From Escherichia phage tunus, in the sequence record NC_049816.1: DNA of 51,111 nt. One strand, written 5' to 3'. This document shows positions 24,283 to 42,126 of this stretch, one piece after another. The position numbers and the translations under genes are program-made. Below the pieces are notes generated by a model. The model did no database searches. It was given only the letters and a program-made list of their open reading frames with translations, and was not told the origin of the DNA. Position 1 is the first letter of the stretch. Every line of letters starts with the position of its first letter.

Positions 24283-24410
24283 CAGTATCCCCTCCCCTTC
24301 CATTCTTCCGCAAGTTTGAAATAGTTCATAGCTTCTTCTACATCTCCGCGCTCAAGTGCTTCCTCCTGCTTCTCTTTGCACCATTGCGAAGGTTGTTTGT
24401 ACTCATCCAT
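24282..24410 (-). CDS. Hypothetical acidic microprotein (42 aa)
   Basis: ATG at 24410 with RBS AAGGTG; stop overlaps next start; below the ORF-track size cut-off. Confidence 0.3.
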   Translation of the reverse strand: MDEYKQPSQWCKEKQEEALERGDVEEAMNYFKLAEEWKGRGY

Positions 24411-24480
24411 TAAATCACCTTACCAGAAAAATAGCTCGTTAGAATGCGATTTAGGCGCTCTAACGGCTATGCGTTTTTAA

Positions 24481-27415: not shown

Positions 27416-27568
27416 TTAGTTTCCTCCATAGCGAAAAATCGCATTAAATTTTTTCCCGCGCTTCTTGTCTTCGTTGCGCTTCTTGCGTTGCTTTTTCACA
27501 AGCTCCACATGCTCATCGTACCCGCGACGCTTCTTTTTGGTAATGATTTTTTCAAAGTTACGCATCAT
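27416..27568 (-). CDS. Highly basic microprotein (50 aa, Lys/Arg-rich)
   Basis: ATGATG at 27568 with RBS AGGGGG; stop overlaps next start (TAAATG); below track cut-off. Confidence 0.3.
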   Translation of the reverse strand: MMRNFEKIITKKKRRGYDEHVELVKKQRKKRNEDKKRGKKFNAIFRYGGN

Positions 27569-27624
27569 TTCCCCCTTTAGGTTTTCTCAACATGGCGCAC
27601 TGCATGAATGCGCCATAGCAAGAA

Positions 27625-27810
27625 TCACCACTCAAATTTCTGTTTGTCTCTGATAATCTCGTAAATTGCTAACCACACCCAAACAAACCAGAAAGCGAGA
27701 ACAATTTTATCGTCTTTGTCTGTCGCGTCAGAATATTTCACCAACGCACGGAACGTAAACAAGCCTGAAATGTAAAGAAAAACAACCAAAAAAGCAAGTA
27801 ACCAAATCAT
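27625..27810 (-). CDS. Small membrane protein (hypothetical)
   Basis: 61 aa, RBS GAGGGAG; two hydrophobic segments. Confidence 0.4.
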   Translation of the reverse strand: MIWLLAFLVVFLYISGLFTFRALVKYSDATDKDDKIVLAFWFVWVWLAIYEIIRDKQKFEW

Positions 27811-28070
27811 TTATTTTCTCCCTCTACTACCAGCGTGTAAAGCAATTCAGGATCAATCATGTTGCGGCGGCGTGGCTCTCGTGGCGAATCGGGCCATGCG
27901 CATTTTCCGTTTGACACAATATAGCCTACCAGGTCACTAAGTTTTGAGATTCCATCTCGACGGATAACGTCGTACCCAATATCCTTGCCGTCAATAGAAT
28001 GGATAGCAAAGAAGCTAGGCTCGCCGTCGATAACGTCCACCGCTTTAAAAAACTCAATCTTGTTAGCCAT
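27807..28070 (-). CDS. Hypothetical protein
   Basis: 87 aa, RBS GAGGA. Confidence 0.4.
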   Translation of the reverse strand: MANKIEFFKAVDVIDGEPSFFAIHSIDGKDIGYDVIRRDGISKLSDLVGYIVSNGKCAWPDSPREPRRRNMIDPELLYTLVVEGENK

Positions 28071-28101
28071 GATTTAATCCTCGTTTGTTGTTTATGGGCT
28101 T

Positions 28102-28147
28102 ACTATACCGCAAGCCCGATAATCTGTTTTTGCAAAAAGTGCTATTT
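28102..28147 (-). promoter_or_regulatory. Phage promoter module (box + 19-bp hairpin spacer + TATAGT)
   Basis: Box variant AAATAGCACTTTTTGCAAAAA; spacer palindrome around GGGCTTgcGGtatagtAAGCCC. Confidence 0.5.
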
Positions 28148-28303
28148 ACGAACGCATAACGCTGTTACATCCTTCCCACTATCTGACATGTGGAGAATAA
28201 CTTGCTTTCGCGCCTCCTGGCATCTTGATTCGCCGTGGAACTCCTGCGACTCAATAGCTGCGGAGTTGTAACTTGTGACAAAGATTAAAAGCAACCAAGT
28301 CAT
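28142..28303 (-). CDS. Hypothetical microprotein (53 aa) with hydrophobic N-terminus
   Basis: ATG at 28303 overlaps HAD gene stop (ATGA); 3' end overlaps the promoter box; below track cut-off. Confidence 0.25.
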   Translation of the reverse strand: MTWLLLIFVTSYNSAAIESQEFHGESRCQEARKQVILHMSDSGKDVTALCVRK

Positions 28304-28839
28304 TTTAAACACTCCACGCCGTGAGATTGCAGGTGAGCGTGTGGCTTGTCGTATTCCGTGACCTGATAGGTTGTGATCCCCAGGCTGCGGAAGTGCTTAA
28401 CCACGTTCGGCGAATCGTCAAAGGCGCAAACAATGCTGTCCAGGCCAATGGCGCGCAAGGCTTCTTCTTTAATAACCGTATCCTTTCGGTTGTCCTCCTG
28501 GCGGCGCATGATGATTTCGTCAAACTTCACACCGTTCTCATTCAACCATTTGCAGGTTTTATAGCGAACCTCGTCGCTACGTCCGGTCAAGATGACGATG
28601 GCAAATCCCGACACCCATAAACCGTTAATAACCGCGATAGTGCTTTTAATCGGTGAATCTCCGGCGGCGGCCCTGTTAAACTCGCGCCACGATTCCGTAA
28701 GGTGCAAGTTTTCAGTTGGCAGCAAATGCAAGCGATGCGATCCGTCCGATAATGTGCCGTCCAGGTCAACGATAACAATCGGCTTGCTGGTGATTAATTC
28801 GTACTTTTTGCCCCACAGTTCGAAAGTGTATTTTTTCAT
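28300..28839 (-). CDS. HAD-superfamily phosphatase (polynucleotide 3'-phosphatase / nucleotidase-like)
   Basis: 179 aa; HAD motif I IVDLDGTLSDG; ATGA-coupled to upstream gene. Confidence 0.7.
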   Translation of the reverse strand: MKKYTFELWGKKYELITSKPIVIVDLDGTLSDGSHRLHLLPTENLHLTESWREFNRAAAGDSPIKSTIAVINGLWVSGFAIVILTGRSDEVRYKTCKWLNENGVKFDEIIMRRQEDNRKDTVIKEEALRAIGLDSIVCAFDDSPNVVKHFRSLGITTYQVTEYDKPHAHLQSHGVECLK

Positions 28840-29045
28840 TGCATAGCCTCAATCTTTGCCGCCAGTTTATTTAACACGTTCGCCATGCGCCGTGCGCTCT
28901 CTGCCGAAAGTATTCCCCGAAAGTCTGGCATCCGCCCATATTCGAAAGTGCCATCTATGAAGATCTGATTTCCACGCTGATAAACGTCGATAGTGTCTCC
29001 GTAGTCGTCGGTGAATTTATATTTTGCTGTTTTGTTCTGTTCCAT
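28836..29045 (-). CDS. Hypothetical protein
   Basis: 69 aa, RBS GAGGAAG. Confidence 0.4.
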   Translation of the reverse strand: MEQNKTAKYKFTDDYGDTIDVYQRGNQIFIDGTFEYGRMPDFRGILSAESARRMANVLNKLAAKIEAMQ

Positions 29046-29047
29046 GA

Positions 29048-29275
29048 TTATTTCACTTCCTCAAAGGTTGCGATAAGGTCGGCGTAAGCGCAAATTTCGT
29101 TGCCACTTTGGCCGTTCAGGAACATGCGGAATCCCTGATTATTATTGACGTAAAACGATCCGGTTGATGTTCTCATCTTCTGCGCGGAGTAGATATTTCC
29201 CACCGTGAACATAAAGCCGCAACCTGGCGCTACACTGACGCACTTCATTTTCTTCTGGATGATTAAACTTTCCAT
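29048..29275 (-). CDS. Hypothetical protein
   Basis: ATG at 29275 with RBS GAGAGGGG. Confidence 0.4.
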   Translation of the reverse strand: MESLIIQKKMKCVSVAPGCGFMFTVGNIYSAQKMRTSTGSFYVNNNQGFRMFLNGQSGNEICAYADLIATFEEVK

Positions 29276-29305
29276 CGCGTTTCCCCTCTCGTTGAAAGTG
29301 AGGCC

Positions 29306-29350
29306 ATTATACCTGGCCCCACATTTGAGTTTTAACAATTCGTGCTATTT
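29306..29350 (-). promoter_or_regulatory. Phage promoter module (variant box + 18-bp spacer + TATAAT)
   Basis: Box variant AAATAGCACGAATTGTTAAAA; perfect -10. Confidence 0.5.
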
Positions 29351-30242
29351 ACACTTTGACCTTCCACTTAACCATCGTTCCGCGCTTGATGCTGATCTCA
29401 CCTGCAACGGTGCGGTTTTTTGCGCCGCCGTAGTGAAGCAGAAGAATAACAACGTCATCATGAATCTCGATCGTCTTTGGTGTAGCCGTTACTTCAAACC
29501 ACACACCATCATCAAGCCGGACTCCTTTTAGCGTGGCTGCAACTGGCATATCTTCAATTGCGCCCTGCGTTACGATTTCTTGATTTGCAAAGGCGCTCTT
29601 GTCAATACGCCAGCCTCCAGGCGCTTTCATTTCGGCAGCCGCTTTGTGGATCTCATCGCCAATGATTTTCTGAATTGACGTCTTACCGCCGCCGAATGGA
29701 GTTTCTCCAAATAAGTGTTTTGTAATGTCTTCCACGTAGTACACTTTATCTTTTTCGTTGTGCGGATTGAAATCGTTGTGAGCATTGACAAAGAAATCAA
29801 CTTTCAACCCTGATTTCTGACCATCGCTATAAACGCCATTGTCGCGTGATGTGAAGCGAATCGTTGAGTTACCAGTTGTGTGGAACGTGATCGGATACTT
29901 GATATTGTCCACACTTAAGCACCACAGCTTTTTGTAGTCGCAGGTTTTCATATTGACCATCGGAATCTCTGCGCGTTCCGGTGAGCGAACTGGTAACACC
30001 TGGCCCTTGTATGGCTTGTAGTGGAAGCTGGTATATCCTGGCATTGCGTAGCCATAGTCTTTAAGTGCGTTGTAGTGCTTGTTATGTGCATCAATGAAGT
30101 GTTCAATCTCCATGCTTGATGGCTCACGCTTGTAGCTATACAAATCAACCTTATGGCATGTTTTTTCATCGGTAAAAATGTAATGACCAATGCCGCGAGA
30201 TTCGAAGGTGATCGGGAATTTAATGTCAGCAAGTTTTAACAT
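29349..30242 (-). CDS. Hypothetical protein with internal N-terminal tandem duplication
   Basis: 297 aa, strong RBS AGGAGG; two homologous about 50-aa segments (IKFPITFESRG...IEHFIDAHN vs IKYPITFHTTG...VDFFVNAHN). Confidence 0.5.
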   Translation of the reverse strand: MLKLADIKFPITFESRGIGHYIFTDEKTCHKVDLYSYKREPSSMEIEHFIDAHNKHYNALKDYGYAMPGYTSFHYKPYKGQVLPVRSPERAEIPMVNMKTCDYKKLWCLSVDNIKYPITFHTTGNSTIRFTSRDNGVYSDGQKSGLKVDFFVNAHNDFNPHNEKDKVYYVEDITKHLFGETPFGGGKTSIQKIIGDEIHKAAAEMKAPGGWRIDKSAFANQEIVTQGAIEDMPVAATLKGVRLDDGVWFEVTATPKTIEIHDDVVILLLHYGGAKNRTVAGEISIKRGTMVKWKVKV

Positions 30243-30257
30243 TGTGTTTCCTCCTAA

Positions 30258-30440
30258 TTACTTAATTCTAACTTCAACGTCAATATCTGAGCTAGGGGCG
30301 AATAGCTGCGCCTTGCCATTTACACGAATGGTAAGAATGTTCTCTTTGCGGCAGTTATCCAGCACTAGGCGATATTTGCCAGCAAACTTAACCATCATTC
30401 CCGGCTTGACTTCGCTCATTTTGATGATCTTATCCATCAT
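30258..30440 (-). CDS. Hypothetical protein
   Basis: 60 aa, ATGATG start with RBS AAAGGGG; preceded by the 200-nt leader. Confidence 0.45.
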   Translation of the reverse strand: MMDKIIKMSEVKPGMMVKFAGKYRLVLDNCRKENILTIRVNGKAQLFAPSSDIDVEVRIK

Positions 30441-30636
30441 TAACCCCTTTCACATAAATAACCGTTTAATCTTTGGTGACGGGCTTCACTTCGTCGGTAG
30501 CCTCAGCTCAGTGACCTATCTAGCGTTCTGCCTGGTGGCGAGTGTGATAGTTCTGGCCTCACGGTTGGGAATCCTGACACTTCGATCAAGCCCCTGCGTT
30601 ACTCCTCTCCCGCAGCAATCCTTGCCGCCCGTCTAT
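30441..30636 (-). ncRNA. Candidate structured RNA / cis-regulatory leader (about 195 nt, GC-rich, no ORF)
   Basis: Lies between a promoter module and the 30440 start; no start-codon-initiated ORF on the transcribed strand; possible closing helix GACGGGC...GCCCGUC and internal hairpins. Confidence 0.3.
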
Positions 30637-30642
30637 GTGTGT

Positions 30643-30688
30643 ATTATGCCTGGTTATCGCTTTTGAGTTTTAACAAAAAGTGCTATTT
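30643..30688 (-). promoter_or_regulatory. Phage promoter module (box + 19-bp spacer + CATAAT)
   Basis: Exact box AAATAGCACTTTTTGTTAAAA on minus strand. Confidence 0.5.
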
Positions 30689-30872
30689 AGAATTTTACCT
30701 CTTCCACAAGCTCAACCATCTTGTAACCAAGACGATAAGAGTCACCGAACAACAAGATCCCCATAAATTCATCGTGGCTTATTGACTCTTTGCCAACCGT
30801 TCTAAGCTCGCCGTTGTGAATCACAGTATCGCCGATCTTGATTTCTGATTTATGGACTAATTTCGTTTTCAT
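30687..30872 (-). CDS. Hypothetical protein
   Basis: 61-aa ORF with weak Shine-Dalgarno GGGTGA. Confidence 0.4.
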   Translation of the reverse strand: MKTKLVHKSEIKIGDTVIHNGELRTVGKESISHDEFMGILLFGDSYRLGYKMVELVEEVKF

Positions 30873-30887
30873 TTATTCACCCGCTAA

Positions 30888-31073
30888 TTAAAAGAACGCT
30901 ACATAGTTTGCAATGCCTTTGGCGTCGTCGTTTGGCATTGCTTTTACAGCCAGGTCATAACCTGCCTCTACCTTCTGCTTTGCTGTTTCTTCGTTGTAGC
31001 CCCAGATAACCAGGATTTTAACTACGTTTTCTTTGTTCAGGACTTTAAGGTCTTTGGTGATGCGACGTGCCAT
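30888..31073 (-). CDS. Hypothetical protein
   Basis: 61 aa, RBS GAGGAAAC. Confidence 0.4.
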   Translation of the reverse strand: MARRITKDLKVLNKENVVKILVIWGYNEETAKQKVEAGYDLAVKAMPNDDAKGIANYVAFF

Positions 31074-31104
31074 TTTTGTTTCCTCAATCTCGTTTCGATG
31101 AGGC

Positions 31105-31150
31105 TATTATGCCAGGCTTCGCGCCTGGCGTTTTAACAAAAAGTGCTATT
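31105..31150 (-). promoter_or_regulatory. Phage promoter module (box + 19-bp hairpin spacer + CATAAT)
   Basis: Exact box; spacer palindrome CGCCAGGCgcgaaGCCTGGC; transcript would begin near CATCGAAACGAG. Confidence 0.5.
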
Positions 31151-31418
31151 TTGTCTCGACGGTCATATGTTCTGTCTTCGTGCCTTTGCCATTGCTTTTC
31201 GACACTTCCCAGCTAGTAGCGCCCTTGCAGTTGGTGAAGTAAACAGTGCGATCGTCATAGAATCGGTAAACGGTGCAACCGTCAGCGGTGAATAGCTCCC
31301 TTACGCTGTAGTCATCGCCAGGGTTAGCCATCTGCACATTGCCAACATGCGCGCCATCTTCTTTGCATCCGGTCAGGAATGCCATTGCCGCCAAAACGCT
31401 GATTAATGCCTTTTTCAT
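31146..31418 (-). CDS. Small lipoprotein, second candidate exclusion / surface lipoprotein
   Basis: 90 aa, RBS AAGAGGAAG; signal peptide MKKALISVLAAMAFLTGC with lipobox. Confidence 0.55.
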   Translation of the reverse strand: MKKALISVLAAMAFLTGCKEDGAHVGNVQMANPGDDYSVRELFTADGCTVYRFYDDRTVYFTNCKGATSWEVSKSNGKGTKTEHMTVETK

Positions 31419-31879
31419 TGCTCTTCCTCTTTGATGATTTCGCGGATCATATCCTGGTAGCGGCTTACGCCCTCACAAGCTCCAGCCAGTTTATCCCCTT
31501 CCAGGTCAACGATATTCGGGATTGCTGCCAGTATGCGATCGGCAAACTTTTTGATCGCCCTTGCCTTGATGGCTGGCAATTCTTCGGGTGTGATGATTTT
31601 CCTTTTCGATTCGCGGACCATGCGGAAAACGTAAAATTTATCATCTTCCGTTTCCTCTACCTTGATGCTTACCCGACCTGCGGCCCTTACTTCTGGAACG
31701 CGGTTGATAATGGTCCGGCTGTAGGATGAACTGCGCGTGATCTTGTAGCAGTCGTCACCGCTTAACATTCCGGCCAGGTCAATTAGTGACATTTTATACT
31801 CTTCAATATCGCCACTAGCCAGGCGGCGACCAAGCTCGCGAAGCCAATCGCAATAGTCCTTAGTGGTCTTCTGTTCCAT
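31415..31879 (-). CDS. Hypothetical early protein (first gene of leftward early unit)
   Basis: ATG at 31879 with RBS GGAGGAAAGG; the track's upstream ATG overlaps the promoter -10. Confidence 0.5.
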   Translation of the reverse strand: MEQKTTKDYCDWLRELGRRLASGDIEEYKMSLIDLAGMLSGDDCYKITRSSSYSRTIINRVPEVRAAGRVSIKVEETEDDKFYVFRMVRESKRKIITPEELPAIKARAIKKFADRILAAIPNIVDLEGDKLAGACEGVSRYQDMIREIIKEEEQ

Positions 31880-31910
31880 TTCCTTTCCTCCAGTTGTTGA
31901 CTGTTGGCGC

Positions 31911-31939
31911 ATTATAAAAGCTATTTGGTGCGTGTCAAT
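31911..31939 (-). promoter_or_regulatory. sigma70-type early promoter TTGACA-N17-TATAAT (leftward)
   Basis: Consensus hexamers; resembles the promoter at 1554-1581. Confidence 0.55.
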
Positions 31940-32374
31940 GTTTTTGTTGTATTCAAAACGTTACCAATATCGAAAAACTACAAAATCATGCGCAAGTTAT
32001 TGATTTCGCGGCTGTTATTTTTCTGTTCACTCTGTTAACGCAATCCGCCGGAAAAAGTATATATACATATGCAATCCGCCGCGCGCGCAACTATCCATAT
32101 ATACCCACACACAACCACACCATAACCAACAAAAAGCACTGTAACAGTGAGAACAAAAAGAAAACATTATAGATATATATAAATAAATAATCTTTATTTT
32201 CAATGTATTATAGAGGATTTTCTTTGTTTTTTCCGTTTTCGCTACACCGGAAAACCGCGCGGAAACACGCCGCCTGAAATCGGTAACAGGGGTGAACAAA
32301 AGACAACAACCACTGACAGCCAGGCGGAAAAGTGAGGCAAGAGGGGAAGGTTTCACTATCTCCCCTGCAACCAA

Positions 32375-32463
32375 TGATTAAACGTGATTACTTTTCTCAT
32401 CAAATTTGCAAAGGCAATCATCATTTTGACGTGATTTGATTACGAATGATTACTTTTGATTAT
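32375..32463. repeat. Phased GATTA(C) direct repeats (iteron-like)
   Basis: Five TGATTA/GATTAC copies at about 32376, 32386, 32438, 32448, 32458, the last three exactly 10 bp apart, just upstream of the rightward promoter module. Confidence 0.45.
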
Positions 32464-32491
32464 TTCGATCGCAATCCTGGCGATAACCGTC

Positions 32492-32537
32492 AAATAGCAC
32501 TTTTTGTTAAAACTCAGGCCACCTGATCGGGTACATT
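32492..32537 (+). promoter_or_regulatory. Phage promoter module (box + 19-bp spacer + TACATT)
   Basis: Exact box; transcript would start near the conserved CATCGAAACGAACC. Confidence 0.5.
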
Positions 32538-32577
32538 ACACACATCGAAACGAACCGCACTTACTGAGGACCAAACA

Positions 32578-32880
32578 ATGATTAACATGAACCTGTTCAC
32601 CGCTAAAGACCACGAGAATATGGCAGCACTGGCTGACCTGTTCGAAACAGCAGAAATGGCTGAACTGTTCATGACTGAGCATGAATTCCAGGACGGCATC
32701 AGCAATGCCATTGAAACAAATTTTGGCGACGCTCGCGTTACTGGTGCAATGTTTGCAAATATCGCGCGTAAATTCTTCCAGGCTTACCGCGACGCTCGCC
32801 ATGTAAAGGGCACGTTTGGATCTGCGAAAGACACCGCTGAAACTATCCGCGCTTACATTGAGCGCCACGCAAAACAATAA
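32578..32880 (+). CDS. Hypothetical acidic early protein (first gene of rightward early unit)
   Basis: 100-aa ORF with weak Shine-Dalgarno GAGGAC; Asp/Glu-rich N-terminal half. Confidence 0.5.
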   Translation: MINMNLFTAKDHENMAALADLFETAEMAELFMTEHEFQDGISNAIETNFGDARVTGAMFANIARKFFQAYRDARHVKGTFGSAKDTAETIRAYIERHAKQ

Positions 32881-32924
32881 ATAGCACTTTTTGTTAAAAG
32901 CTGATCGGGATAACCTGGTATAGT
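32879..32924 (+). promoter_or_regulatory. Phage promoter module (box + 19-bp hairpin spacer + TATAGT)
   Basis: Exact box; spacer palindrome GGGATAAC...GTTATCCC; followed by CATCGAAACGAACC. Confidence 0.5.
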
Positions 32925-32959
32925 TATCCCATCGAAACGAACCGCTCAGGAGATAGTAA

Positions 32960-33232
32960 ATGAACATCAGCAAAACCACTTTCAATTTCGCTAAGCGTCA
33001 CGGTCTTGATCTGACTGTTGAAGATTTTGGCGATGTTCTGCAACTCTGCATTTGGGAAGCAGATAACGATTGCGAGTGGCTTTGCTCTTATCGTATTAAC
33101 TACGATTGCTTGACCTGGCACGGCAATATCTATCTGCCGCAAGAAGTGAAAGAAGAATTGCCAGCGACTATCAACAACGAAGTTTTCTTGCGCCAGGTGC
33201 TGAAATTTATCAGTAAGGAGATCAAAAAGTAA
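32960..33232 (+). CDS. Hypothetical protein
   Basis: 90-aa ORF with weak Shine-Dalgarno AGGAGA close to ATG. Confidence 0.45.
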   Translation: MNISKTTFNFAKRHGLDLTVEDFGDVLQLCIWEADNDCEWLCSYRINYDCLTWHGNIYLPQEVKEELPATINNEVFLRQVLKFISKEIKK

Positions 33233-33498
33233 TGGCGGTGATTACCGAAAATGATTTGGATCTGGCGGAGGCGTTTTGCAGGGCCGCCAGGGCCAACCTG
33301 GATGTGGCTACTAAATTTCTTCCGGCGCGACCACTCTTTTCGTGTGCGCCCGTGAATAAACCGACTCGCGTAATGATCGTGATTGAAGGTGATGGCCTGT
33401 ACGCTGAAAAGACGTTCCACATCAGCAACATTAAGGGCCGTGCTGATTTTATCAATGATGTTTGCTTATTGCAGGAGAAGAAAAAATGTTGGATGTGA
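33232..33498 (+). CDS. Hypothetical protein
   Basis: 88 aa, RBS AAGGAG, TAATG overlap with upstream stop. Confidence 0.45.
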   Translation: MAVITENDLDLAEAFCRAARANLDVATKFLPARPLFSCAPVNKPTRVMIVIEGDGLYAEKTFHISNIKGRADFINDVCLLQEKKKCWM

Positions 33499-33695
33499 TC
33501 AAGAAAGCCCGTGAGATGGGTATGGATGTTTCAATCTGCGACGCTTCCGCGCGTCACCCGTCAGCACCTGAAAATATGGTTGTTGTCATCGTGCATAATC
33601 ACCGCTATGAGTGCCGTGCGATGTTTGAGAAGCAGGATAAAGAGTCTCAACGCTGCTTTATCAATGAAGTTTGCGATCTGTATGGTCGGATCTGA
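33486..33695 (+). CDS. Hypothetical protein
   Basis: ATG at 33486 with RBS AGGAGA. Confidence 0.4.
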   Translation: MLDVIKKAREMGMDVSICDASARHPSAPENMVVVIVHNHRYECRAMFEKQDKESQRCFINEVCDLYGRI

Positions 33696-33921
33696 AATGT
33701 TCAAGAAATTGTTATGGCTGTACCGCTCCAGGCGCAACAAGGGATATTGCAGGGGCACGGAAAGGAATCTTGACCGCGCTTATAAATACTGTCTGTTGTT
33801 GCTCGCCAGTCTGCCGGAAAACAGGAAGGAATATATTGCGCTGCGAGAAATAACAATGCGGATATATAGTTACAGAAATAAACTATACGTCTTTAAATCT
33901 TTACGATAAGGAGTAATAACC

Positions 33922-34185
33922 ATGAAAATTAATGCACCTATTCCAGTTAAGCGCAAAGCACGTTTGCTCAATAACGGATGTTACGCCCTGCGGCCTGCAT
34001 TTAAGGCTCGCACATTTCCGGTTATCGTTAACGTGTCTCACGTAAGCCGTAGCGGAAACCTGGTATTCGTTAAAGGTGAAGATCTGGCGGCGCTTGGATT
34101 CTATGGCGGTGCTCACGGAGAACCGCTCGGATTCTGGCTTGTAGATCCGTTAACTGGAGAGCGTGAAATCGAATTTCTGGACTAA
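33922..34185 (+). CDS. Hypothetical protein
   Basis: 87 aa, RBS AAGGAG; about 225 bp of low-coding-potential sequence upstream. Confidence 0.45.
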   Translation: MKINAPIPVKRKARLLNNGCYALRPAFKARTFPVIVNVSHVSRSGNLVFVKGEDLAALGFYGGAHGEPLGFWLVDPLTGEREIEFLD

Positions 34186-34229
34186 ATAGCACTTTTTGTT
34201 AAAAACGATGCGCTGCTGATTGGTATAGT
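34184..34229 (+). promoter_or_regulatory. Phage promoter module (box + 19-bp hairpin spacer + TATAGT)
   Basis: Exact box; spacer palindrome GATGCGCT...AGCGCATC. Confidence 0.5.
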
Positions 34230-34260
34230 AAGCGCATCGACAACAAACGAGGATTTAAAG

Positions 34261-34458
34261 ATGGAAAATCAGGTTGATGTTAAAGTTGTTAAGCGCGACA
34301 AGTCTCACGAAAAAGGTTTGTTTAAGAAAGGTGCTGAAATCACCATTGACCTTGATGATATGGAGGCGTATCACTCAGGGCTAACTTGGAACGTTCGCAA
34401 ATGTGAAAACGGCCTGTTCAAGTTAAATGGCTTTGAAACATACATGGAGATCATTTAA
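34261..34458 (+). CDS. Hypothetical protein
   Basis: 65 aa, RBS GAGGA. Confidence 0.45.
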   Translation: MENQVDVKVVKRDKSHEKGLFKKGAEITIDLDDMEAYHSGLTWNVRKCENGLFKLNGFETYMEII

Positions 34459-34670
34459 TGGCAAAGCAATTAAAACTTAAATGCGTAGAAACTTATAACT
34501 CAATTTGGAAATTCACGCGCGAAAAAGAATATCCACTAATGGGAAATCTCAAAGAAGATCCTCATGTAATTTCAGATAATGGTCTTCACCTTTATTTGAT
34601 GGAATACAACGATGGCTATATTGGTGCTGGTGTTCCTGGACATAAATTTAAGCTGAAAAATAAGAAATGA
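34458..34670 (+). CDS. Hypothetical protein
   Basis: 70 aa, TAATG overlap with upstream stop. Confidence 0.45.
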   Translation: MAKQLKLKCVETYNSIWKFTREKEYPLMGNLKEDPHVISDNGLHLYLMEYNDGYIGAGVPGHKFKLKNKK

Positions 34671-34778
34671 GGCTATTTATTTTCAAAAACGCTTGGATGG
34701 TTGCGGTTGCAAATGACCATTACGGCGGCGACGGAAAAAGAGCACGACGCCATTCATATTTCAATTGAGGATATTTAA

Positions 34779-35006
34779 ATGAAAGCAAAAGTTTTAAACA
34801 TTGTGTCAACTATTGACGCCCATCACCGCGTGGCTGTAAAACTTGATAAGTCTTGTGGAATTAGCCAAATCACTATCACCGAGGGTAAAGGCGGCTATCT
34901 TATTGGTATCCATCCAGGCGGTAAGGTGCGCAAATACAATAAAGATCAGTTAAAAGAATTACTGGAAGAAAACGCTTTCTATATTCAAAGTTGGCGTGCT
35001 CTTTAA
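34779..35006 (+). CDS. Hypothetical protein
   Basis: 75 aa, RBS GAGGA. Confidence 0.45.
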   Translation: MKAKVLNIVSTIDAHHRVAVKLDKSCGISQITITEGKGGYLIGIHPGGKVRKYNKDQLKELLEENAFYIQSWRAL

Positions 35007-35048
35007 TTAATATGGCGGCGTTTTGCCGCCTTTTAAATGAGGTGGAAA

Positions 35049-35165
35049 ATGATAGATAAGGCTATTGATTTCTTTTTTTATTCGATTATTGGCGCGGTTG
35101 GCTTTTTGGTTACTGCTGCTGGCCTGGCTATTATCTTGGCTGTTATTAAGGGGATTATGCGATGA
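35049..35165 (+). CDS. Small hydrophobic peptide (38 aa, single transmembrane helix)
   Basis: ATG at 35049 with RBS GAGGTGG; ATGA overlap with next gene; below track cut-off. Confidence 0.3.
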   Translation: MIDKAIDFFFYSIIGAVGFLVTAAGLAIILAVIKGIMR

Positions 35166-35386
35166 GTCAAGACGGATTTTTTGAGCGCCTTCAAATGGCA
35201 GAAGATGCCGGACTAAATAAAGAGGCGGCGCTTGAAGTGGCATATAAAATTAAGACTCTTGATGAGGCTTTAGGTGATATGGATATGGATCTTGAATCAA
35301 GCGCAATATTTGCAGATCCCACTATGATTGTTAATGATTGTGGATGCGATTTCGATCCTGGTTGTCCGCGCTGTTTTCCGTTTTGA
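35162..35386 (+). CDS. Acidic protein with C-terminal Cys4 zinc-ribbon-like motif
   Basis: 74 aa, Asp/Glu-rich; C-terminal CGCDFDPGCPRC. Confidence 0.45.
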   Translation: MSQDGFFERLQMAEDAGLNKEAALEVAYKIKTLDEALGDMDMDLESSAIFADPTMIVNDCGCDFDPGCPRCFPF

Positions 35387-35396
35387 GGTAATGACG

Positions 35397-36107
35397 ATGT
35401 ATAAAGGTTTAATATTCTCCCTATTTGATGGATCTGGTAAAGCCGTTAAAGATTGGGCTGATAATGGCTATAAGTGCATTTGCTTTAATGCTGACGGCGG
35501 CGATCACGGTGATTACCAGTCAGTGCGCATACAGCATGAGAATATCGAATACGTTAACGTCTGGATTGATGATGCTTTTTATGTTAAGGCAATCAATAAT
35601 GAGTGGGGCAATCCTGATTTTATTATGGCCTTCCCACCATGCACCGACCTTGCAAATAGCGGATCTCGCCATTGGGCTAAAAAGCGCCTTAAAAATCCAT
35701 CTTTCCAGGATGAGGCCGCCGACACTTGCAGAATCGCGGCTGATATAGCTGATTATTTCGGTGTTCCATACATGATCGAAAATCCGGTTGGCAAGTTGTC
35801 AACGTTATGGCGAAAGCCTGATTATACGTTCCATCCGTGCGATTACGCTAGCTATCTGCCGGAAGATGATAAACATCCCGACTTCCCTGATATTATTCCG
35901 GCGCGGGATCGCTATTTTAAGAAAACATGCCTCTGGACTGGCAACGGCTTTGTTATTCCTCCACGCGCTTTAATCCTGCCGAAAGAGAAAGACAAAGATA
36001 ATCCAGGCTGGGCCAAAACTGGCGGCAATTCATCGCGCACAAAGATGATCCGCTCCCTCACTCCGCGCGGCTTTGCTCGCGCCGTCTTTGAGTCAAACTC
36101 AAAATAG
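35397..36107 (+). CDS. DNA cytosine-C5 methyltransferase-like protein (short, core motifs only)
   Basis: ATG at 35397 with RBS GAGGT; motif I-like FSLFDGSG, motif IV-like FPPC, motif VI-like ENPVGKL in canonical order and spacing; no obvious target-recognition domain. Confidence 0.55.
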   Translation: MYKGLIFSLFDGSGKAVKDWADNGYKCICFNADGGDHGDYQSVRIQHENIEYVNVWIDDAFYVKAINNEWGNPDFIMAFPPCTDLANSGSRHWAKKRLKNPSFQDEAADTCRIAADIADYFGVPYMIENPVGKLSTLWRKPDYTFHPCDYASYLPEDDKHPDFPDIIPARDRYFKKTCLWTGNGFVIPPRALILPKEKDKDNPGWAKTGGNSSRTKMIRSLTPRGFARAVFESNSK

Positions 36108-36147
36108 CACTTTTTGTTAAAAGCCAGGTGTAAAAACCTGGCATAAT
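36102..36147 (+). promoter_or_regulatory. Phage promoter module (box + 19-bp hairpin spacer + CATAAT)
   Basis: Exact box; spacer palindrome CCAGGtgtaaaaaCCTGG. Confidence 0.5.
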
Positions 36148-36176
36148 CACATCAAACAAACAAAGGAGATCTGATC

Positions 36177-36563
36177 ATGAATGTTATCTGTAATGAAACC
36201 AACGTATTGATGAAAGGCCGATTTAAAACGGTTTATCAGAAGATTGCAGGAAGTAATGATGTGATCGAGGTGGAAGAATTCCAGGTTAAGACGCTTGTTA
36301 AGGGTAGCCGCTGGCTTCCAGCAAACCGAGATGATTACCGCGTCATTAACACAAAAACCGTTCTTTGCACGTTTGTAGATCATAACATGCCGTGCAAAAA
36401 GCACTTTAAGCAGGGAAAGCGATACCAGATCGAGAAAGGGCGACCGCTTGGAAGCGTTGCGGGTTATGTTTTTGATGAGTGCGGCGACCGCTGGAACCTG
36501 TACCGTGAAGAGGTCGGATTCTCTGCTGGCGGCTGTTATCTTTTTGAGGGTAAATATCTGTGA
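36177..36563 (+). CDS. Hypothetical protein
   Basis: 128 aa, RBS AAGGAG. Confidence 0.45.
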   Translation: MNVICNETNVLMKGRFKTVYQKIAGSNDVIEVEEFQVKTLVKGSRWLPANRDDYRVINTKTVLCTFVDHNMPCKKHFKQGKRYQIEKGRPLGSVAGYVFDECGDRWNLYREEVGFSAGGCYLFEGKYL

Positions 36564-36781
36564 TAAACAGTGAAAACCGTTACAAAGTAACGAATTCTAC
36601 CACAAAGACTTTCAAGCCTGGCGATATAGTCAGGCCCATCAAAAAAACGGCGGTAGGTTGGCTGATTGGTTTTTCATATCATAAGGCTCTTTACTTTACG
36701 TTTAAGGATGGGATCATGGGGGAATGCTATAGCGACCGCCATCCTGATCGACTTCTGGTTGCAATAGAGCGGATCAAATAG
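36560..36781 (+). CDS. Hypothetical protein
   Basis: 73 aa, start overlaps upstream stop. Confidence 0.4.
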   Translation: MINSENRYKVTNSTTKTFKPGDIVRPIKKTAVGWLIGFSYHKALYFTFKDGIMGECYSDRHPDRLLVAIERIK

Positions 36782-36821
36782 CACTTTTTGACAAAACGGG
36801 GTAGTATTGGGCCGTTAAAAT
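36776..36821 (+). promoter_or_regulatory. Phage promoter module (variant box TTGACAAAA + 19-bp spacer + TAAAAT)
   Basis: Box variant AAATAGCACTTTTTGACAAAA; hairpin GGGCCGttaaaatttaCGGCCC. Confidence 0.45.
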
Positions 36822-36849
36822 TTACGGCCCACAAAGGAGAAGCTAACGA

Positions 36850-38430
36850 ATGTTTTCATTAGAAACGAACAAATTAACTCCACAGCAAATAATCGCTATG
36901 GCTGAAAGCCAGAACCTTTCACCAGTTCGCGTATCAATTCAGGCTAACGGCTATCGCCAGTCGTCCAGCTTTTGGGGCGACGTAAAGGATGTGAATAGCG
37001 GTCACGATCGCTACCCCGTTATTTCTCTTGGTAATGATATTGATGTTGTCGGCAAGTTATCACGCAGCATTGCGCGATCCGTTCAATTCCCTGAATCATC
37101 GGCTTACATGCACTTTATCGGCTGCATTTCTGCCGCTATGCTTGGACGCTTTACGGTTGACTATCACGGAACCGATCAGCCGACTGCGCTTTACGTCGTT
37201 ACAAGCCAGCCGCCGTCAACTGGTAAATCTGCGATCAACAGCATGGCTATTGCTCCGATGATTGCGGAAGTTGAGAAGATCAACGAGAAACGCCGCAAGG
37301 AAAGAAAGAAAATACAGGCAAAGCTGGCAGGTCTTGCAAAGGAGATGAAAAGCGAAAGATCCGGCGCTGATATGGAATCTCTATACCAGGAAAAAGAGGA
37401 TCTGGAGGAAAAGCTGGAAAAAATGTGTGATATAACTTTTCCTGTTTCAGATACAACTCCAGAAGGCTTGGCGAAAATCAACAACAAGCAAGGTAACTTT
37501 GCCGTAATTTCTGATGAAGCAACAAGTATTAACAGTCTGTTAGGTTTGACCTATGCAAATAGCGAAAGGAAGACTAACAGTGAGTTAGTGCTTAAGGCGT
37601 GGGATAATGGTCACGTATCAATTGCCCGTGCTAATGCTGACAATAATATGAGTTTTCGCGCGCTTGGATGTATGAGCGTTATAGCCCAGGATGAAACGAT
37701 AAGCGGAATCATGGACGCTGGATCGCGAGGCATCGGTGTTAGTGAGCGTTTTTTGTTGGTCCGCGAGGAATCATTCTTAGGCCGTCGCTCATTCATTGAT
37801 GAAAATGGTGATTCTACCTATGAGGCGGTGGATTCTGAATTGAAAGCCCAATATTATCAATTGGTGCATAACATCATGAGCGAATCAAATATATCGCTGA
37901 AAATAAGCCGTTCAGCTATGCGAGTGCTCAACATTGCTCGCCAGGATATGGAGCCGCATCTTGCAGACGGAGGAAAGTATTCTCATACAATGTTACGCGG
38001 TGCGCTGGGTAAAATGGATAAACAGGTGATCAGGCTTGCTTCCGTCCTGCATGTTATCCGTAACTGGTTTAATCCTGCCGGATACCCGCAGAAGTCGAAA
38101 GAGATCGACGTGGAAACAATGCAAGAGGCGTTGATCATGTTTCAGGAATTGAGCAAAACATACATTAGCGCCGCCAATGCTTCTGGTTATGCTGGTGATG
38201 ATGCTGAAATGGGTAAATTGATTGAATTGATCACGAGGCACGGCAAGGCTAACAAAGGGATCCTGAATATTCGCGCCCTGTACGAATCAGCGAGAAAGGT
38301 AAAACCTTTCGTTGGTCAGGCTGGCGTAATGAAAAGGATAGAAGGGCACTTACTGCCAATGCTGGAAGAAAGAAATTATGTTTGTGTGATTAATGGTGTT
38401 ATTTTTGTCAATCCAATACTGCTGGGATGA
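36850..38430 (+). CDS. P-loop NTPase with SF3-helicase/AAA-like Walker motifs (function unknown)
   Basis: 526 aa, RBS AAAGGAGA; Walker A VTSQPPSTGKSA and Walker B FAVISDEATS about 110 aa apart; Lys/Glu-rich coiled segment between them. Confidence 0.6.
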   Translation: MFSLETNKLTPQQIIAMAESQNLSPVRVSIQANGYRQSSSFWGDVKDVNSGHDRYPVISLGNDIDVVGKLSRSIARSVQFPESSAYMHFIGCISAAMLGRFTVDYHGTDQPTALYVVTSQPPSTGKSAINSMAIAPMIAEVEKINEKRRKERKKIQAKLAGLAKEMKSERSGADMESLYQEKEDLEEKLEKMCDITFPVSDTTPEGLAKINNKQGNFAVISDEATSINSLLGLTYANSERKTNSELVLKAWDNGHVSIARANADNNMSFRALGCMSVIAQDETISGIMDAGSRGIGVSERFLLVREESFLGRRSFIDENGDSTYEAVDSELKAQYYQLVHNIMSESNISLKISRSAMRVLNIARQDMEPHLADGGKYSHTMLRGALGKMDKQVIRLASVLHVIRNWFNPAGYPQKSKEIDVETMQEALIMFQELSKTYISAANASGYAGDDAEMGKLIELITRHGKANKGILNIRALYESARKVKPFVGQAGVMKRIEGHLLPMLEERNYVCVINGVIFVNPILLG

Positions 38431-38822
38431 TTATGTTTTTGCTTGATCTGTATAAATGGTGTGAGTCATACGATTGGTTTAACAGGCAGCACATAGCCAA
38501 ATTTATCTATCAGCATAGAGAATGTGAGCGGCTCGCACGGGCCGCCGGACTTACGCCGCGAATGTTCGCCAGCCTTGCATCTAAGGAATTTTGCGCAAGA
38601 ATGATGACGGCTGGTTATATAGATGGAGTCTGCGGAAAATACTGGTCCAAAGGATCGTCAAAGCGGCCTTTCGGATTCGAATTGTATAGCCTGGATGGTA
38701 TGCGCAACGACTGGATCAGGGATATGGCTAGAATAGGGGAGATGGGCGATGATGAATTGTTCCAGGCAAAAGCTAATAGACAAGATCTTGAAGCACTGCG
38801 CCGTAAATTCAATATCACATGA
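38427..38822 (+). CDS. Hypothetical protein
   Basis: 131 aa, ATGA-coupled to the NTPase gene. Confidence 0.45.
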   Translation: MIMFLLDLYKWCESYDWFNRQHIAKFIYQHRECERLARAAGLTPRMFASLASKEFCARMMTAGYIDGVCGKYWSKGSSKRPFGFELYSLDGMRNDWIRDMARIGEMGDDELFQAKANRQDLEALRRKFNIT

Positions 38823-38833
38823 GGATTTTATTC

Positions 38834-38929
38834 ATGCGTTACTTACGCTGCTTTATTCAGATATGCGCGCTTTTGGCACCAATGAACACGTTTTATGCAA
38901 TGATGATGGTGTGTTATTGGTTACAGTAA
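38834..38929 (+). CDS. Small hydrophobic peptide (31 aa)
   Basis: ATG at 38834 with RBS GAGGA; alternative to the overlapping track ORF 38749..38943, which lacks an RBS. Confidence 0.25.
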   Translation: MRYLRCFIQICALLAPMNTFYAMMMVCYWLQ

Positions 38930-38937
38930 AGCGTATG

Positions 38938-38983
38938 GAATAGCATTTTTTGTTAAAACTCCCGACCTTGTGTCGGGTATATT
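38938..38983 (+). promoter_or_regulatory. Phage promoter module (box + 19-bp hairpin spacer + TATATT)
   Basis: Box variant gAATAGCATTTTTTGTTAAAA; spacer palindrome CCCGACcttgtgTCGGG; followed by CATCGAAACGAACC. Confidence 0.5.
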
Positions 38984-39020
38984 TGTTTCATCGAAACGAA
39001 CCAACCAAAAAGGAAAAATT

Positions 39021-39245
39021 ATGTCCAGCAAGTTTTTAGTAGTTCGCGTATACAATCATGCAAATGGATCTTCTTCTGAAATCCCGACAGTTTACGATAA
39101 GGATTCAGGCTGGAGTGAGCAATCGGCGGTTGAAAATGAGCGCAAGATTGCAGGACTATACGGCGACACTTGCAGCATTGAAGTAAGGCAGTACGACGAA
39201 TATAACAAACCAACAAACGAAAGCCATACGTGGCCCGACGCATAA
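39021..39245 (+). CDS. Hypothetical protein
   Basis: ATG at 39021 (MSSKFLVV) with purine-rich RBS. Confidence 0.4.
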   Translation: MSSKFLVVRVYNHANGSSSEIPTVYDKDSGWSEQSAVENERKIAGLYGDTCSIEVRQYDEYNKPTNESHTWPDA

Positions 39246-39280
39246 AAATAAAGGAGGCATTAAGCCTCCTTTTTCTTTTC
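39244..39280. terminator. Bidirectional intrinsic terminator between convergent units
   Basis: AGGAGGCattaaGCCTCCT with A-run upstream and T-run downstream; overlaps the spanin 3' end. Confidence 0.6.
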
Positions 39281-41620: not shown

Positions 41621-41714
41621 TCTGCTACCTATCTCATCACTATATGGTACATAACTGTAACAGCGATGATAACGGGTAACGGTAGAACAAACAAGCGCCA
41701 CATGATAACTATCC

Positions 41715-41957
41715 TCATTTATAATATTTGCGAGGCTCTCGGATTTTAGCCATTGCCTCTTTGAAATCAATTTTTGTTGGAACTGCTGGAACTCTTACCA
41801 TTTTTCGCGGCCTTTCCTTGAGGAAAGTCATCTTGTCGCCGCTAATTATGCTCACATCTGCAATATCAAAGTATTGCGCGATCTTCTTTATGTCGTCGGC
41901 AATACCGCATTCTTTAGCGTGATTCCATACCGCATCTCTTCCTTGCTCAACCTTCAT
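41715..41957 (-). CDS. Hypothetical protein
   Basis: ATG at 41957 overlapping stop of upstream microprotein. Confidence 0.4.
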   Translation of the reverse strand: MKVEQGRDAVWNHAKECGIADDIKKIAQYFDIADVSIISGDKMTFLKERPRKMVRVPAVPTKIDFKEAMAKIREPRKYYK

Positions 41958-42126
41958 GCTTATAATATGCCTCCGCTTGTTCAATTGGTGCGTGACCGTA
42001 TGCAACTTTCAGTAAAAACATTGCGATCTCCCAATCAAACTGGAATCCTTCCTTTGAACCGCCATCCACTGAACCTTTTGCCACCTCTTGAGCAAGATTA
42101 AAAGCGCGTTTATCGAATACTACCAT
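41947..42126 (-). CDS. Hypothetical microprotein (59 aa)
   Basis: ATG at 42126 with RBS GAGGAAAT; below track cut-off. Confidence 0.35.
   Translation of the reverse strand: MVVFDKRAFNLAQEVAKGSVDGGSKEGFQFDWEIAMFLLKVAYGHAPIEQAEAYYKHEG

What the first reader, a model, noticed from the sequence alone, without database searches (positions are those of the whole stretch)
27416..38929. Several unannotated microproteins with good RBS, including a 50-aa Lys/Arg-rich protein and small membrane peptides
Below the 60-aa ORF-track cut-off I find coupled small ORFs at 27416..27568 (50 aa, about 40 percent Lys/Arg), 24282..24410, 28142..28303, 41947..42126, 35049..35165 and 38834..38929 (the last two single-TMD peptides). 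Each has a Shine-Dalgarno sequence or overlaps a neighbouring stop.
Basis: seen in the sequence. Interest (0 to 1): 0.35.

Follow-up and report, generated by a model that had tools for sequence, protein, structure and literature searches.

The report
Small phage genes, one false ORF
Five of the six short ORFs are genuine, conserved small-protein genes of a T1-like coliphage, already listed as hypothetical proteins in related genomes (one belongs to the T7 gp1.1 family), and the sixth is a chance ORF lying out of frame inside a real 64-aa gene, so the finding is mostly correct but ordinary.

Summary
The window is a T1-like coliphage (Drexlerviridae, Warwickvirus; about 98% identical to phage tunus). 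All six ORFs exist exactly as described.

Five are real genes: O1 27416..27568(-), O2 24282..24410(-), O3 28142..28303(-), O4 41947..42126(-) and O5 35049..35165(+). Each is intact in diverged relatives, keeps its Shine-Dalgarno (SD) site, and has the lowest pN/pS of all six frames (0.35-0.58). Each is translationally coupled to a neighbouring gene.

They are not "unannotated". Relatives list them as hypothetical proteins, and four match PHROG families.

- O1, the Lys/Arg-rich one, belongs to the T7 gp1.1 family (PF08200). Its MRNFEK N-terminus is shared with T7-like and K1E-like phages. Its function is unknown.
- O3 is not a membrane protein. It is predicted as a soluble beta-beta-alpha-beta mini-domain (pLDDT 89).
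- O4 is predicted as a three-helix bundle.
- O5 is a true single-TMD peptide.

O6 (38834..38929) is rejected. It lies out of frame inside a 64-aa gene (38749..38943) that is conserved in 43 loci, and its own frame carries stop codons in diverged alleles.

Verdict: ordinary accessory phage genes, low novelty.

The parts
27416..27568 (-). O1: 50-aa (49 aa if the second ATG at 27565 is used) Lys/Arg-rich protein, pI 10.7. T7 gp1.1-family member with an MRNFEKI N-terminus. Its last codons (YGGN) double as the SD of the next gene.
   Evidence: Found in 21 loci as 16 alleles of 43-53 aa. pN/pS is 0.56, the lowest of six frames. PF08200 scores 18.9 bits for the window allele and 23.6-24.9 bits for three relatives, against a gathering threshold (GA) of 21. 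All 13 family members hit only PF08200. SD duplex -10.1 kcal/mol. Present in 68 phage records, mostly annotated as hypothetical protein.
27584..27624 (-). GC-rich intergenic hairpin directly upstream of the O1 SD
   Evidence: RNA fold of the 59-nt intergenic stretch gives -22 kcal/mol.
24282..24410 (-). O2: 42-aa acidic (pI 4.6) helical microprotein. Motif PSQWC...EALERGD...YF...W..RG. Its stop overlaps the next start (TGATG).
   Evidence: 24 loci, 22 alleles; 20 of the 22 are exactly 42 aa (L073 truncated by an internal stop, L065 41 aa from a GTG start). pN/pS 0.35, the lowest frame. phrog_1312 E=1.5e-17. Annotated in tunus.
24431..24470 (-). Intergenic hairpin upstream of O2
   Evidence: RNA fold gives -17.4 kcal/mol.
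28142..28303 (-). O3: 53-aa protein coupled to the polynucleotide kinase gene (ATGA overlap). Predicted soluble beta-beta-alpha-beta mini-domain with two conserved Cys. Not a membrane peptide.
   Evidence: 9 loci, 5 alleles. pN/pS 0.58, the lowest frame. phrog_5579 E=3.5e-9. AlphaFold2 pLDDT 89 with E2-10, E15-23, H25-40, E45-52. Found in 56 phage records as hypothetical protein. Weak T1 ST69 match, E=0.03.
41947..42126 (-). O4: 59-aa protein with a conserved core DWxxAMxxLKVAYGH. Predicted three-helix bundle. Overlaps the next gene by 11 nt.
   Evidence: 23 loci, 21 alleles. pN/pS 0.55, the lowest frame. phrog_2180 E=4e-15. T1 ST18 homologue, E=3e-10. AF2 pLDDT 73. In the exhaustive HMMER search, 21 representative clusters, 20 of them stand-alone 46-76 aa proteins and one a 434-aa outlier matched only over query positions 2-28.
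42164..42182 (-). GC-rich hairpin plus T-rich tail upstream of O4
   Evidence: Terminator-like site in the scan; fold.
35049..35165 (+). O5: 38-aa single-pass membrane peptide (TMD about residues 8-33, C-terminal K/R). Its stop overlaps the next start (ATGA).
   Evidence: 8 loci, 9 alleles of 36-38 aa in two clades at 51-54% identity, with the TMD retained. pN/pS 0.58, lowest but only just (0.66 for one antisense frame). Kyte-Doolittle 2.51. SD -7.9 kcal/mol. Found in 81 phage records, mostly as hypothetical protein. No PHROG or Pfam hit.
35014..35030 (+). GC hairpin plus T-run (terminator-like) directly upstream of the O5 SD
38834..38929 (+). O6: NOT a gene. A shadow ORF in the +1 frame of the 64-aa gene.
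   Evidence: Seen only in 4 near-identical loci. 5 of 8 variable columns fall at its codon position 2. The frame is open in 5 of 36 alleles.
38749..38943 (+). Genuine 64-aa gene that contains O6. It overlaps the 3' end of the upstream 131-aa gene by 74 nt.
   Evidence: Conserved in 43 loci down to 37% identity. pN/pS 0.47, the lowest frame. phrog_9539 E=2.9e-26.

Best explanation
The window is the genome of a virulent T1-like coliphage (Drexlerviridae, Warwickvirus). Its early and DNA-metabolism arms are dense arrays of small accessory genes.

O1, O2, O3, O4 and O5 are five such genes. Each is an independently translated cistron inside a polycistronic mRNA, and each encodes a microprotein kept by purifying selection.

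Shown:
- O1, O2, O4 and O5 each sit just downstream of a stable intergenic hairpin.
- Each has its own Shine-Dalgarno site.
- Each ends within 0 to -11 nt of the next start codon (translational coupling).
- O3 is coupled by an ATGA overlap to the polynucleotide-kinase gene upstream.

Inferred: like other phage microproteins, they act by binding host or phage macromolecules rather than by catalysis.
- O1 is a gp1.1-family polybasic peptide. Its invariant N-terminal MRNFE(K) motif is the specific docking determinant. Its variable Lys/Arg tail binds a polyanionic target (RNA, ribosome or DNA), contributing to early host takeover.
- O2 (acidic helical hairpin), O3 (beta-beta-alpha-beta mini-domain) and O4 (three-helix bundle) are soluble protein binders.
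- O5 is an inner-membrane single-pass peptide with its C-terminus in the cytoplasm.

O6 is not a gene. It is a chance ORF in an alternative frame of a real 64-aa gene.
For: Identity of the phage.

ORFs and junctions.

Conservation as intact ORFs in diverged lineages, with SD retained:
- O1: 16 alleles
- O2: 22 alleles
- O3: 5 alleles
- O4: 21 alleles
- O5: 9 alleles

The candidate frame has the lowest pN/pS of six frames in all five cases (0.56, 0.35, 0.58, 0.55, 0.58), with an excess of third-position changes.

Family matches: phrog_1312, phrog_5579 and phrog_2180. PF08200 is passed by three O1-family alleles and hit by all 13 aligned members.

The MRNFEK codons vary synonymously across T7-like, K1E-like and T1-like groups.

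Structure: the O3 model is confident and the O4 model is moderate.

O5 has a genuine TMD.

Public annotation of the same CDSs.

O6 rejection.

No Rfam family lies in the window.

Hint for gp1.1: co-expression of Ocr with gp1.1 shuts down host protein synthesis; gp1.1 is otherwise 'unknown function' (PMC7064336).
Against: - There is no direct expression evidence (Ribo-seq, proteomics) for any of them.
- O5 rests on only two clades, and its pN/pS (0.58) barely beats one antisense frame (0.66).
- The window's own O1 allele scores 18.9 bits, below the PF08200 threshold of 21.
- O1's C-terminal third is hypervariable even among genomes more than 95% identical.
- The genes are dispensable in some lineages. 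T1 lacks O1, O2 and O5. O2 has a premature stop in L073. O4 is truncated in L031.
- Orthologues were extracted as ORFs in the candidate frame, so 'open in all alleles' is partly by construction.
- All functional statements are inference. Fold and profile searches found no characterised relative.
Confidence: 0.85

Rival explanations
1. The small ORFs are translated, but only the act of translation matters. They would be leader or coupling cistrons that open downstream mRNA structure after the intergenic hairpins and deliver ribosomes to the next gene. The peptides themselves would have no function.
For: O1, O2, O4 and O5 all lie directly after a hairpin and end 0 to -11 nt from the next start. 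O1's last codons form the SD of the next gene, and its C-terminal third is hypervariable.
Against: Amino-acid sequences are under purifying selection (pN/pS 0.35-0.58). Specific motifs are kept over large distances: MRNFEK across three phage groups with synonymous codon changes, PSQWC/EALERGD, and DWxxAMxxLKVAYGH. O3 and O4 are predicted to fold. Lengths are conserved.
Confidence: 0.08
2. Some or all of O1-O5 are chance ORFs in non-coding intergenic spacers. Their conservation would reflect nucleotide-level elements (terminators, promoters, RNA structure).
For: 'sORF + SD' is frequent by chance: 23-63 such ORFs in the window. Hairpins abut the ORFs. O5's frame discrimination is weak.
Against: There is a third-position excess of substitutions, and the candidate frame has the lowest pN/pS in all five. 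Alternative frames are broken by stops in most alleles. PHROG and Pfam families match. No Rfam match. Indels are in frame.
Confidence: 0.05
3. O6 is a genuine overlapping (dual-coding) membrane peptide gene embedded in the 64-aa gene, newly evolved in the Warwickvirus lineage.
For: It has an ATG with a GAGGA motif 9 nt upstream (SD duplex -6.1 kcal/mol). It is open in the four closest genomes. It is hydrophobic.
Against: Among those close genomes it accumulates 4-6 replacements in 31 residues, while the 64-aa frame changes 1-2 residues in 64. Substitutions sit at its codon position 2. Its frame is interrupted by stops in essentially all diverged alleles, being open in 5 of 36. pN/pS of that frame is about 0.9.
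Confidence: 0.03

Closest known systems
Bacteriophage T7 gene 1.1 protein (gp1.1; Pfam PF08200 Phage_1_1; phrog_2490)
   Same: O1 shares the N-terminal MRNFEK motif, the 42-53 aa size, the very basic Lys/Arg-rich composition, and a position in an early/DNA-metabolism gene array tightly coupled to the next gene. Three O1-family alleles pass the Pfam gathering score, and all hit only this family.
   Different: The window's allele scores 18.9 against 21 bits. Position 7 is Ile rather than Met. The middle and C-terminal sequence is unrelated in detail. The host genome is a siphovirus with no phage RNAP, and the neighbour is a 63-aa ORF plus dNMP kinase, not gp1.2 (no similarity). PHROGs places it nearer phrog_8176 than phrog_2490. 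The function of gp1.1 itself is unknown (PMC7064336).
Phage T1 ST18 (YP_003927, 69 aa) and ST69 (YP_003875, 49 aa) hypothetical proteins
   Same: ST18 is a clear homologue of O4 (E=3e-10). ST69 is a probable homologue of O3, with a hydrophobic N-terminal strand, two Cys and a C-terminal CV[KR][KR]. Both are annotated small genes in the family's type phage.
   Different: The sequences are highly diverged (43% and 29% identity). The ST69 match is not significant on its own (E=0.03). Neither has a known function.
PHROG families phrog_1312 (O2), phrog_5579/phrog_3766 (O3), phrog_2180 (O4)
   Same: Full-length, significant profile matches.
   Different: All are 'unknown function', so membership adds no mechanism.
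Characterised small phage host-interaction proteins (e.g. T7 Gp2, T4 Dmd, phi29 p56; review PMC11323111)
   Same: Similar size class (40-60 aa), compact folds and early-gene location. Gp2, Dmd and p56 appear among the low-ranking, non-significant fold hits of O3.
   Different: No significant sequence or structure similarity (E>1). This is an analogy only.

Membership tests
Pfam PF08200 (Bacteriophage T7 1.1 protein) | HMM score at or above the gathering threshold (21 bits) | tested here: inconclusive
   The window allele scores 18.9 bits, below threshold. Orthologous alleles from L047 (a near-identical genome), L023 and the L059 type score 24.9, 23.6 and 23.7 bits, above threshold. All 13 aligned members hit only PF08200.
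Pfam PF08200 (Bacteriophage T7 1.1 protein) | N-terminal MRNFEK motif at the very start of a 40-55 aa, strongly basic protein | tested here: met
   O1 reads M-MRNFEKI..., with K+R 38% and pI 10.7. M1, R2, N3, F4 and E5 are invariant in the alignment with T7-like and K1E-like proteins. The motif codons vary synonymously (note that this scan required the motif).
Pfam PF08200 (Bacteriophage T7 1.1 protein) | Genomic position just downstream of the phage RNA polymerase gene, as in T7 and K1E-like phages | tested here: not met
   T1-like phages have no phage RNAP. O1 lies between a 61-aa two-TMD gene and a 63-aa gene plus dNMP kinase. T7 and K1E contexts. This is context, not a formal family criterion.
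Pfam PF08200 (Bacteriophage T7 1.1 protein) | Shared biochemical function | not testable with these tools
   The function of gp1.1 is unknown (PMC7064336).
PHROG phrog_1312 / phrog_5579 / phrog_2180 | Significant full-length profile match | tested here: met
   O2 E=1.5e-17, O3 E=3.5e-9, O4 E=4.4e-15.
TPR / Sel1-like repeat (considered for O2) | Significant match to a TPR or Sel1 profile or structure | tested here: not met
   No Pfam hit for any of 10 family members, even at E<=10. The PDB profile search gives only sub-significant hits to consensus TPR proteins (E 0.3-0.5).
Sec signal peptide / membrane anchor (considered for O3) | N-terminal hydrophobic helix of at least 15-18 residues, positively charged n-region | tested here: not met
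   The uncharged run is only 12 residues, with Kyte-Doolittle 1.05. The N-terminus is predicted with high confidence as beta-strand 1 of a beta-beta-alpha-beta fold.
Single-pass membrane microprotein (O5) | Uncharged hydrophobic stretch of at least 19 residues, conserved in orthologues | tested here: met
   The uncharged run is 26 residues, with a best 19-mer Kyte-Doolittle score of 2.51. The TMD is retained in the 51-54% identical clade.

The most novel reading that the evidence does not exclude
The O1/gp1.1 family is a dedicated host-takeover microprotein. It has an invariant N-terminal MRNFE(K) motif followed by a free-evolving polybasic tail. It is shared by three otherwise unrelated lineages of virulent coliphages: T7-like and K1E-like podoviruses and T1-like siphoviruses. 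Under this reading it docks onto one conserved host machine (for example the ribosome/rRNA or the nucleoid). That would give a comparative handle on T7 gene 1.1, which was still described as of unknown function in 2020 (PMC7064336), and it would show horizontal spread of this factor between phage families.
Probability: 0.3. Interest if true: 0.5.

Novelty: already known. Interest (0 to 1): 0.18.

Why it matters
The practical value is annotation quality.

- Five sub-60-aa genes (plus three more found here) are real and should be kept in any gene track of this phage.
- One attractive-looking 'membrane peptide' is an artefact.
- 'ORF + SD' alone has a high false-positive rate, so conservation tests are needed.

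Biologically, the only item of wider interest is that the Lys/Arg-rich protein ties T1-like phages to the T7 gp1.1 family. That family is a conserved microprotein with no assigned function in a model phage. T1-like homologues, several of them in the BASEL collection phages, widen the set of systems in which it could be studied.

Tried and rejected
1. gp1.2 next to O1: the 63-aa gene downstream of O1 has no similarity to T7 gp1.2.
2. O2 as a single TPR/Sel1 hairpin: no Pfam support and only sub-significant PDB hits. Kept as a resemblance only.
3. O3 as a secreted or membrane peptide with a disulfide: rejected by hydropathy and the confident beta-beta-alpha-beta model.
4. O1 as a mimic of a small basic ribosomal protein: the profile search of the PDB gave only E>2 compositional hits to eL38 and eS30. 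Not supported.
5. Counting tblastn hits per ORF as a conservation screen: confounded by shadow frames of conserved genes. Replaced by six-frame pN/pS.
6. The search for homologous proteins for O1, O3 and O4 returned only near-identical sequences. Structure predictions therefore used very shallow alignments.
7. Fold searches for O3 and O4 found no characterised relative.
8. Rfam and NCBIfam: nothing.
9. Literature: no functional study of gp1.1 beyond a remark on host shut-off with Ocr. McAllister & Barrett 1977, listed among that paper's references and my guess at the source of the remark (no citation is attached to the sentence), is not held in the library.
10. O6 as an overlapping gene: rejected.

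Full report
**What the window is.** A megablast of 24000-42500 against deposited phages finds 422 records. The best are about 98% identical over 97% of the query (Escherichia phages tunus, ExeQuayColi, MartyMcPhage). Phage tunus is classified Drexlerviridae; Tempevirinae; Warwickvirus. The window is therefore a virulent T1-like coliphage genome. The finding's ORFs lie in its two arms of densely packed small genes: the minus-strand arm at about 23-32 kb and 39-43 kb, and the plus-strand arm at about 33-39 kb.

**Observation.** All six ORFs exist as stated, with ATG starts, stops and SD-like motifs.
- O1 27416..27568(-): 50 aa, 19 K+R (38%), pI 10.7.
- O2 24282..24410(-): 42 aa, pI 4.6.
- O3 28142..28303(-): 53 aa.
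- O4 41947..42126(-): 59 aa.
- O5 35049..35165(+): 38 aa, with a 26-residue uncharged stretch.
- O6 38834..38929(+): 31 aa.

The coupling claims are correct:
- O1's stop is followed immediately by the next ATG.
- O2 overlaps the next start (TGATG).
- O3 overlaps the pnk stop (ATGA).
- O4 overlaps the next gene by 11 nt.
- O5 overlaps the next start (ATGA).

The criterion 'short ORF plus SD' is weak, however. The window has 363 ATG-initiated ORFs of 25-59 aa, and 23 (SD duplex <= -6 kcal/mol) to 63 (<= -4) of them have an SD-like site. Comparative evidence is needed.

**Comparative test.** I fetched 72 related IMG/VR loci anchored on the helicase (63-100% identity) and the large terminase. I extracted the orthologous ORFs.
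- O1: 21 loci, 16 distinct alleles, 43-53 aa.
- O2: 24 loci, 22 alleles; 20 of the 22 are 42 aa.
- O3: 9 loci, 5 alleles.
- O4: 23 loci, 21 alleles.
- O5: 8 loci, 9 alleles in two clades at only 51-54% identity, with the TMD retained.

SD motifs are retained in the diverged alleles. Nei-Gojobori pN/pS computed in all six frames is lowest in the candidate frame every time (O1 0.56, O2 0.35, O3 0.58, O4 0.55, O5 0.58). Variable sites are enriched at codon position 3, and the alternative frames are mostly broken by stops. O5 is the weakest case (0.58 against 0.66 for one antisense frame).

**O6 behaves oppositely.** It is found only in four near-identical loci. Five of its eight variable columns fall at its codon position 2, which is position 3 of the overlapping ORF 38749..38943. 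That 64-aa ORF is conserved in 43 loci down to 37-45% identity. It has the lowest pN/pS of its six frames (0.47) and matches phrog_9539 at E=2.9e-26. The O6 frame is open in only 5 of 36 distinct alleles of that gene. O6 is a shadow ORF, not a gene.

**Are they unannotated?** No.
- Phage tunus carries CDS features at the equivalents of O1-O5.
- tblastn finds O1 in 68, O5 in 81 and O3 in 56 deposited phage records, nearly always under a 'hypothetical protein' feature.
- PHROGs matches O2 (phrog_1312, 1.5e-17), O3 (phrog_5579, 3.5e-9) and O4 (phrog_2180, 4.4e-15), and weakly O1 (phrog_8176, 9e-4). O5 has no family.
- Phage T1 itself has an O4 homologue (ST18, E=3e-10) and a probable O3 homologue (ST69), but no O1, O2 or O5.

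**O1 is a gp1.1-family protein.** Pfam gives a sub-threshold hit to PF08200, 'Bacteriophage 1.1 protein' (18.9 bits against GA 21). T7 gp1.1 is MRNFEKMTKRSNRNARDFEATKGRKLNKTKRDRSHKRSWEGQ. O1 starts M-MRNFEKI and is similarly basic.

Three orthologous O1 alleles, including one from a near-identical genome, pass the gathering score (23.6-24.9 bits). All 13 members of a combined alignment hit only PF08200, and M1, R2, N3, F4 and E5 are invariant.

An exact scan of IMG/VR for the back-translated MRNFEK[I/M] motif found small basic ORFs of this type in three groups:
- T7-like contigs (38-40 kb);
- K1E/ACG-C91-like contigs (about 44 kb, again just after the RNAP gene);
- T1-like contigs.

A weak 29-aa candidate also appeared in phage Av-05. 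The motif's codons vary synonymously (with the caveat that the scan required the motif). Rare variants are MRNFEP and MRTNFEK.

Among genomes more than 95% identical, O1's C-terminal third is replaced by unrelated in-frame cassettes. The final codons (YG[GDE]N) form the SD of the next gene.

The downstream 63-aa gene is unrelated to T7 gp1.2. No solved structure or other family resembles the profile.

[quoted passage not shown] Its co-expression with Ocr shut down host protein synthesis (PMC7064336).

**The other four.**
- **O3.** AlphaFold2 predicts O3 with high confidence (pLDDT 89) as a beta-beta-alpha-beta mini-domain. Its hydrophobic N-terminus is therefore a core strand, not a signal peptide or TMD. 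Foldseek finds nothing significant in the PDB (best is half of designed Top7, E=0.1).
- **O4.** O4 is a moderate-confidence three-helix bundle (pLDDT 73). It matches only its own uncharacterised family in BFVD. An exhaustive HMMER search of 1.84 billion representatives finds just 21 clusters, 20 of them stand-alone 46-76 aa proteins plus one 434-aa outlier.
- **O2.** O2 has a TPR-consensus-like GDxExAxxYF segment, but there is no Pfam hit and only sub-significant PDB hits.
- **O5.** O5 is a bona fide single-pass peptide.

NCBIfam and Rfam add nothing.

**Architecture and likely mode of expression.** O1, O2, O4 and O5 each follow a stable GC-rich intergenic hairpin (-12.8 to -22 kcal/mol). Two of these were flagged as terminator-like, in the manner of the many intergenic terminators annotated in T1. 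Each then has its own SD and is coupled to the downstream gene.

This is consistent with independently initiated cistrons in read-through polycistronic transcripts. A pure 'leader ORF' role is unlikely given the protein-level selection.

**Mechanism (inferred).** These are accessory early proteins that act by binding. O1 would bind through a specific N-terminal motif plus a polybasic tail aimed at a polyanionic target. O2, O3 and O4 would act as small soluble binders. O5 would sit in the inner membrane. None of this is shown.

**Also noticed.** The other side observations are a probable wrong-strand annotation in tunus at 39019..39243, a conserved 74-nt gene overlap, and a perfect consensus sigma-70 promoter at 31938-31911.

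**Verdict.** The features are ordinary, already-catalogued small phage genes of unknown function. One of the six is an artefact. The gp1.1 link is the only point of modest wider interest.

Noticed in passing
It has an N-terminal PPFDFH motif followed by a C-terminal TMD. There are 13 alleles, and pN/pS is 0.43, the lowest of six frames. It is annotated in tunus and has no PHROG.
   Followed up: partly
window 34667..34768 (+): A conserved 33-aa microprotein with a nearly invariant core AVANDHYGGDGKRAxRH. There are 17 alleles. pN/pS is 0.23, the strongest constraint of all the small ORFs examined. phrog_32259 E=3e-20.
   Followed up: partly
window 41629..41718 (-): A conserved 29-aa hydrophobic peptide (MRIxIMWRLxxLPLPVIIA...) located between the DNA-repair exonuclease gene and the 80-aa gene. 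There are 14 alleles. pN/pS is 0.41, against 0.46 for one antisense frame. It is annotated in tunus.
   Followed up: partly
window 39021..39245 (+) versus 39019..39243 (-): The plus-strand 74-aa ORF (MSSKFLVV...) has diverged homologues and matches phrog_27210 (E=6e-34). The minus-strand ORF annotated in phage tunus is seen only in near-identical genomes, and its antisense frame has the lowest pN/pS (0.31). The public annotation is probably on the wrong strand.
   Followed up: partly
window 38749..38822: A 74-nt overlap between the 131-aa gene (38427..38822) and the 64-aa gene (38749..38943). It appears conserved in both frames across many loci. The T1 homologue of the 64-aa gene (T1 44002..44169, minus strand) is not annotated in NC_005833.
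   Followed up: partly
window 31911..31938 (-): A perfect 12/12 consensus sigma-70 promoter (TTGACA-16 nt-TATAAT) just upstream of the 165-aa gene 31415..31912. It lies at the edge of the divergent intergenic region around 32 kb and is probably a strong early promoter.
   Followed up: no
window 39250..39272 (both strands); 38961..38977 (+): A bidirectional terminator-like hairpin lies where the plus-strand arm meets the convergent lysis cassette. A second hairpin lies between the 64-aa gene and the 74-aa gene.
   Followed up: no
window 27416..27480 (-), compared with L047, L049, L048: The C-terminal third of O1 is swapped for unrelated in-frame cassettes among genomes that are otherwise more than 95% identical. 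The N-terminal 31 residues stay fixed. This may be a local mosaic or diversification hotspot.
   Followed up: partly
window 27625..27810 (-): Immediately upstream of O1 lies a 61-aa protein with two predicted TMDs (phrog_9755, E=1e-22). The arm is rich in tiny membrane proteins.
   Followed up: no
L073 8247..8369; L031 7516..7668: O2 carries an internal stop at codon 15 in one relative (a 53-kb contig). O4 is truncated by stops in another. These microgenes are dispensable or decaying in some lineages, or the stops are sequencing errors.
   Followed up: no
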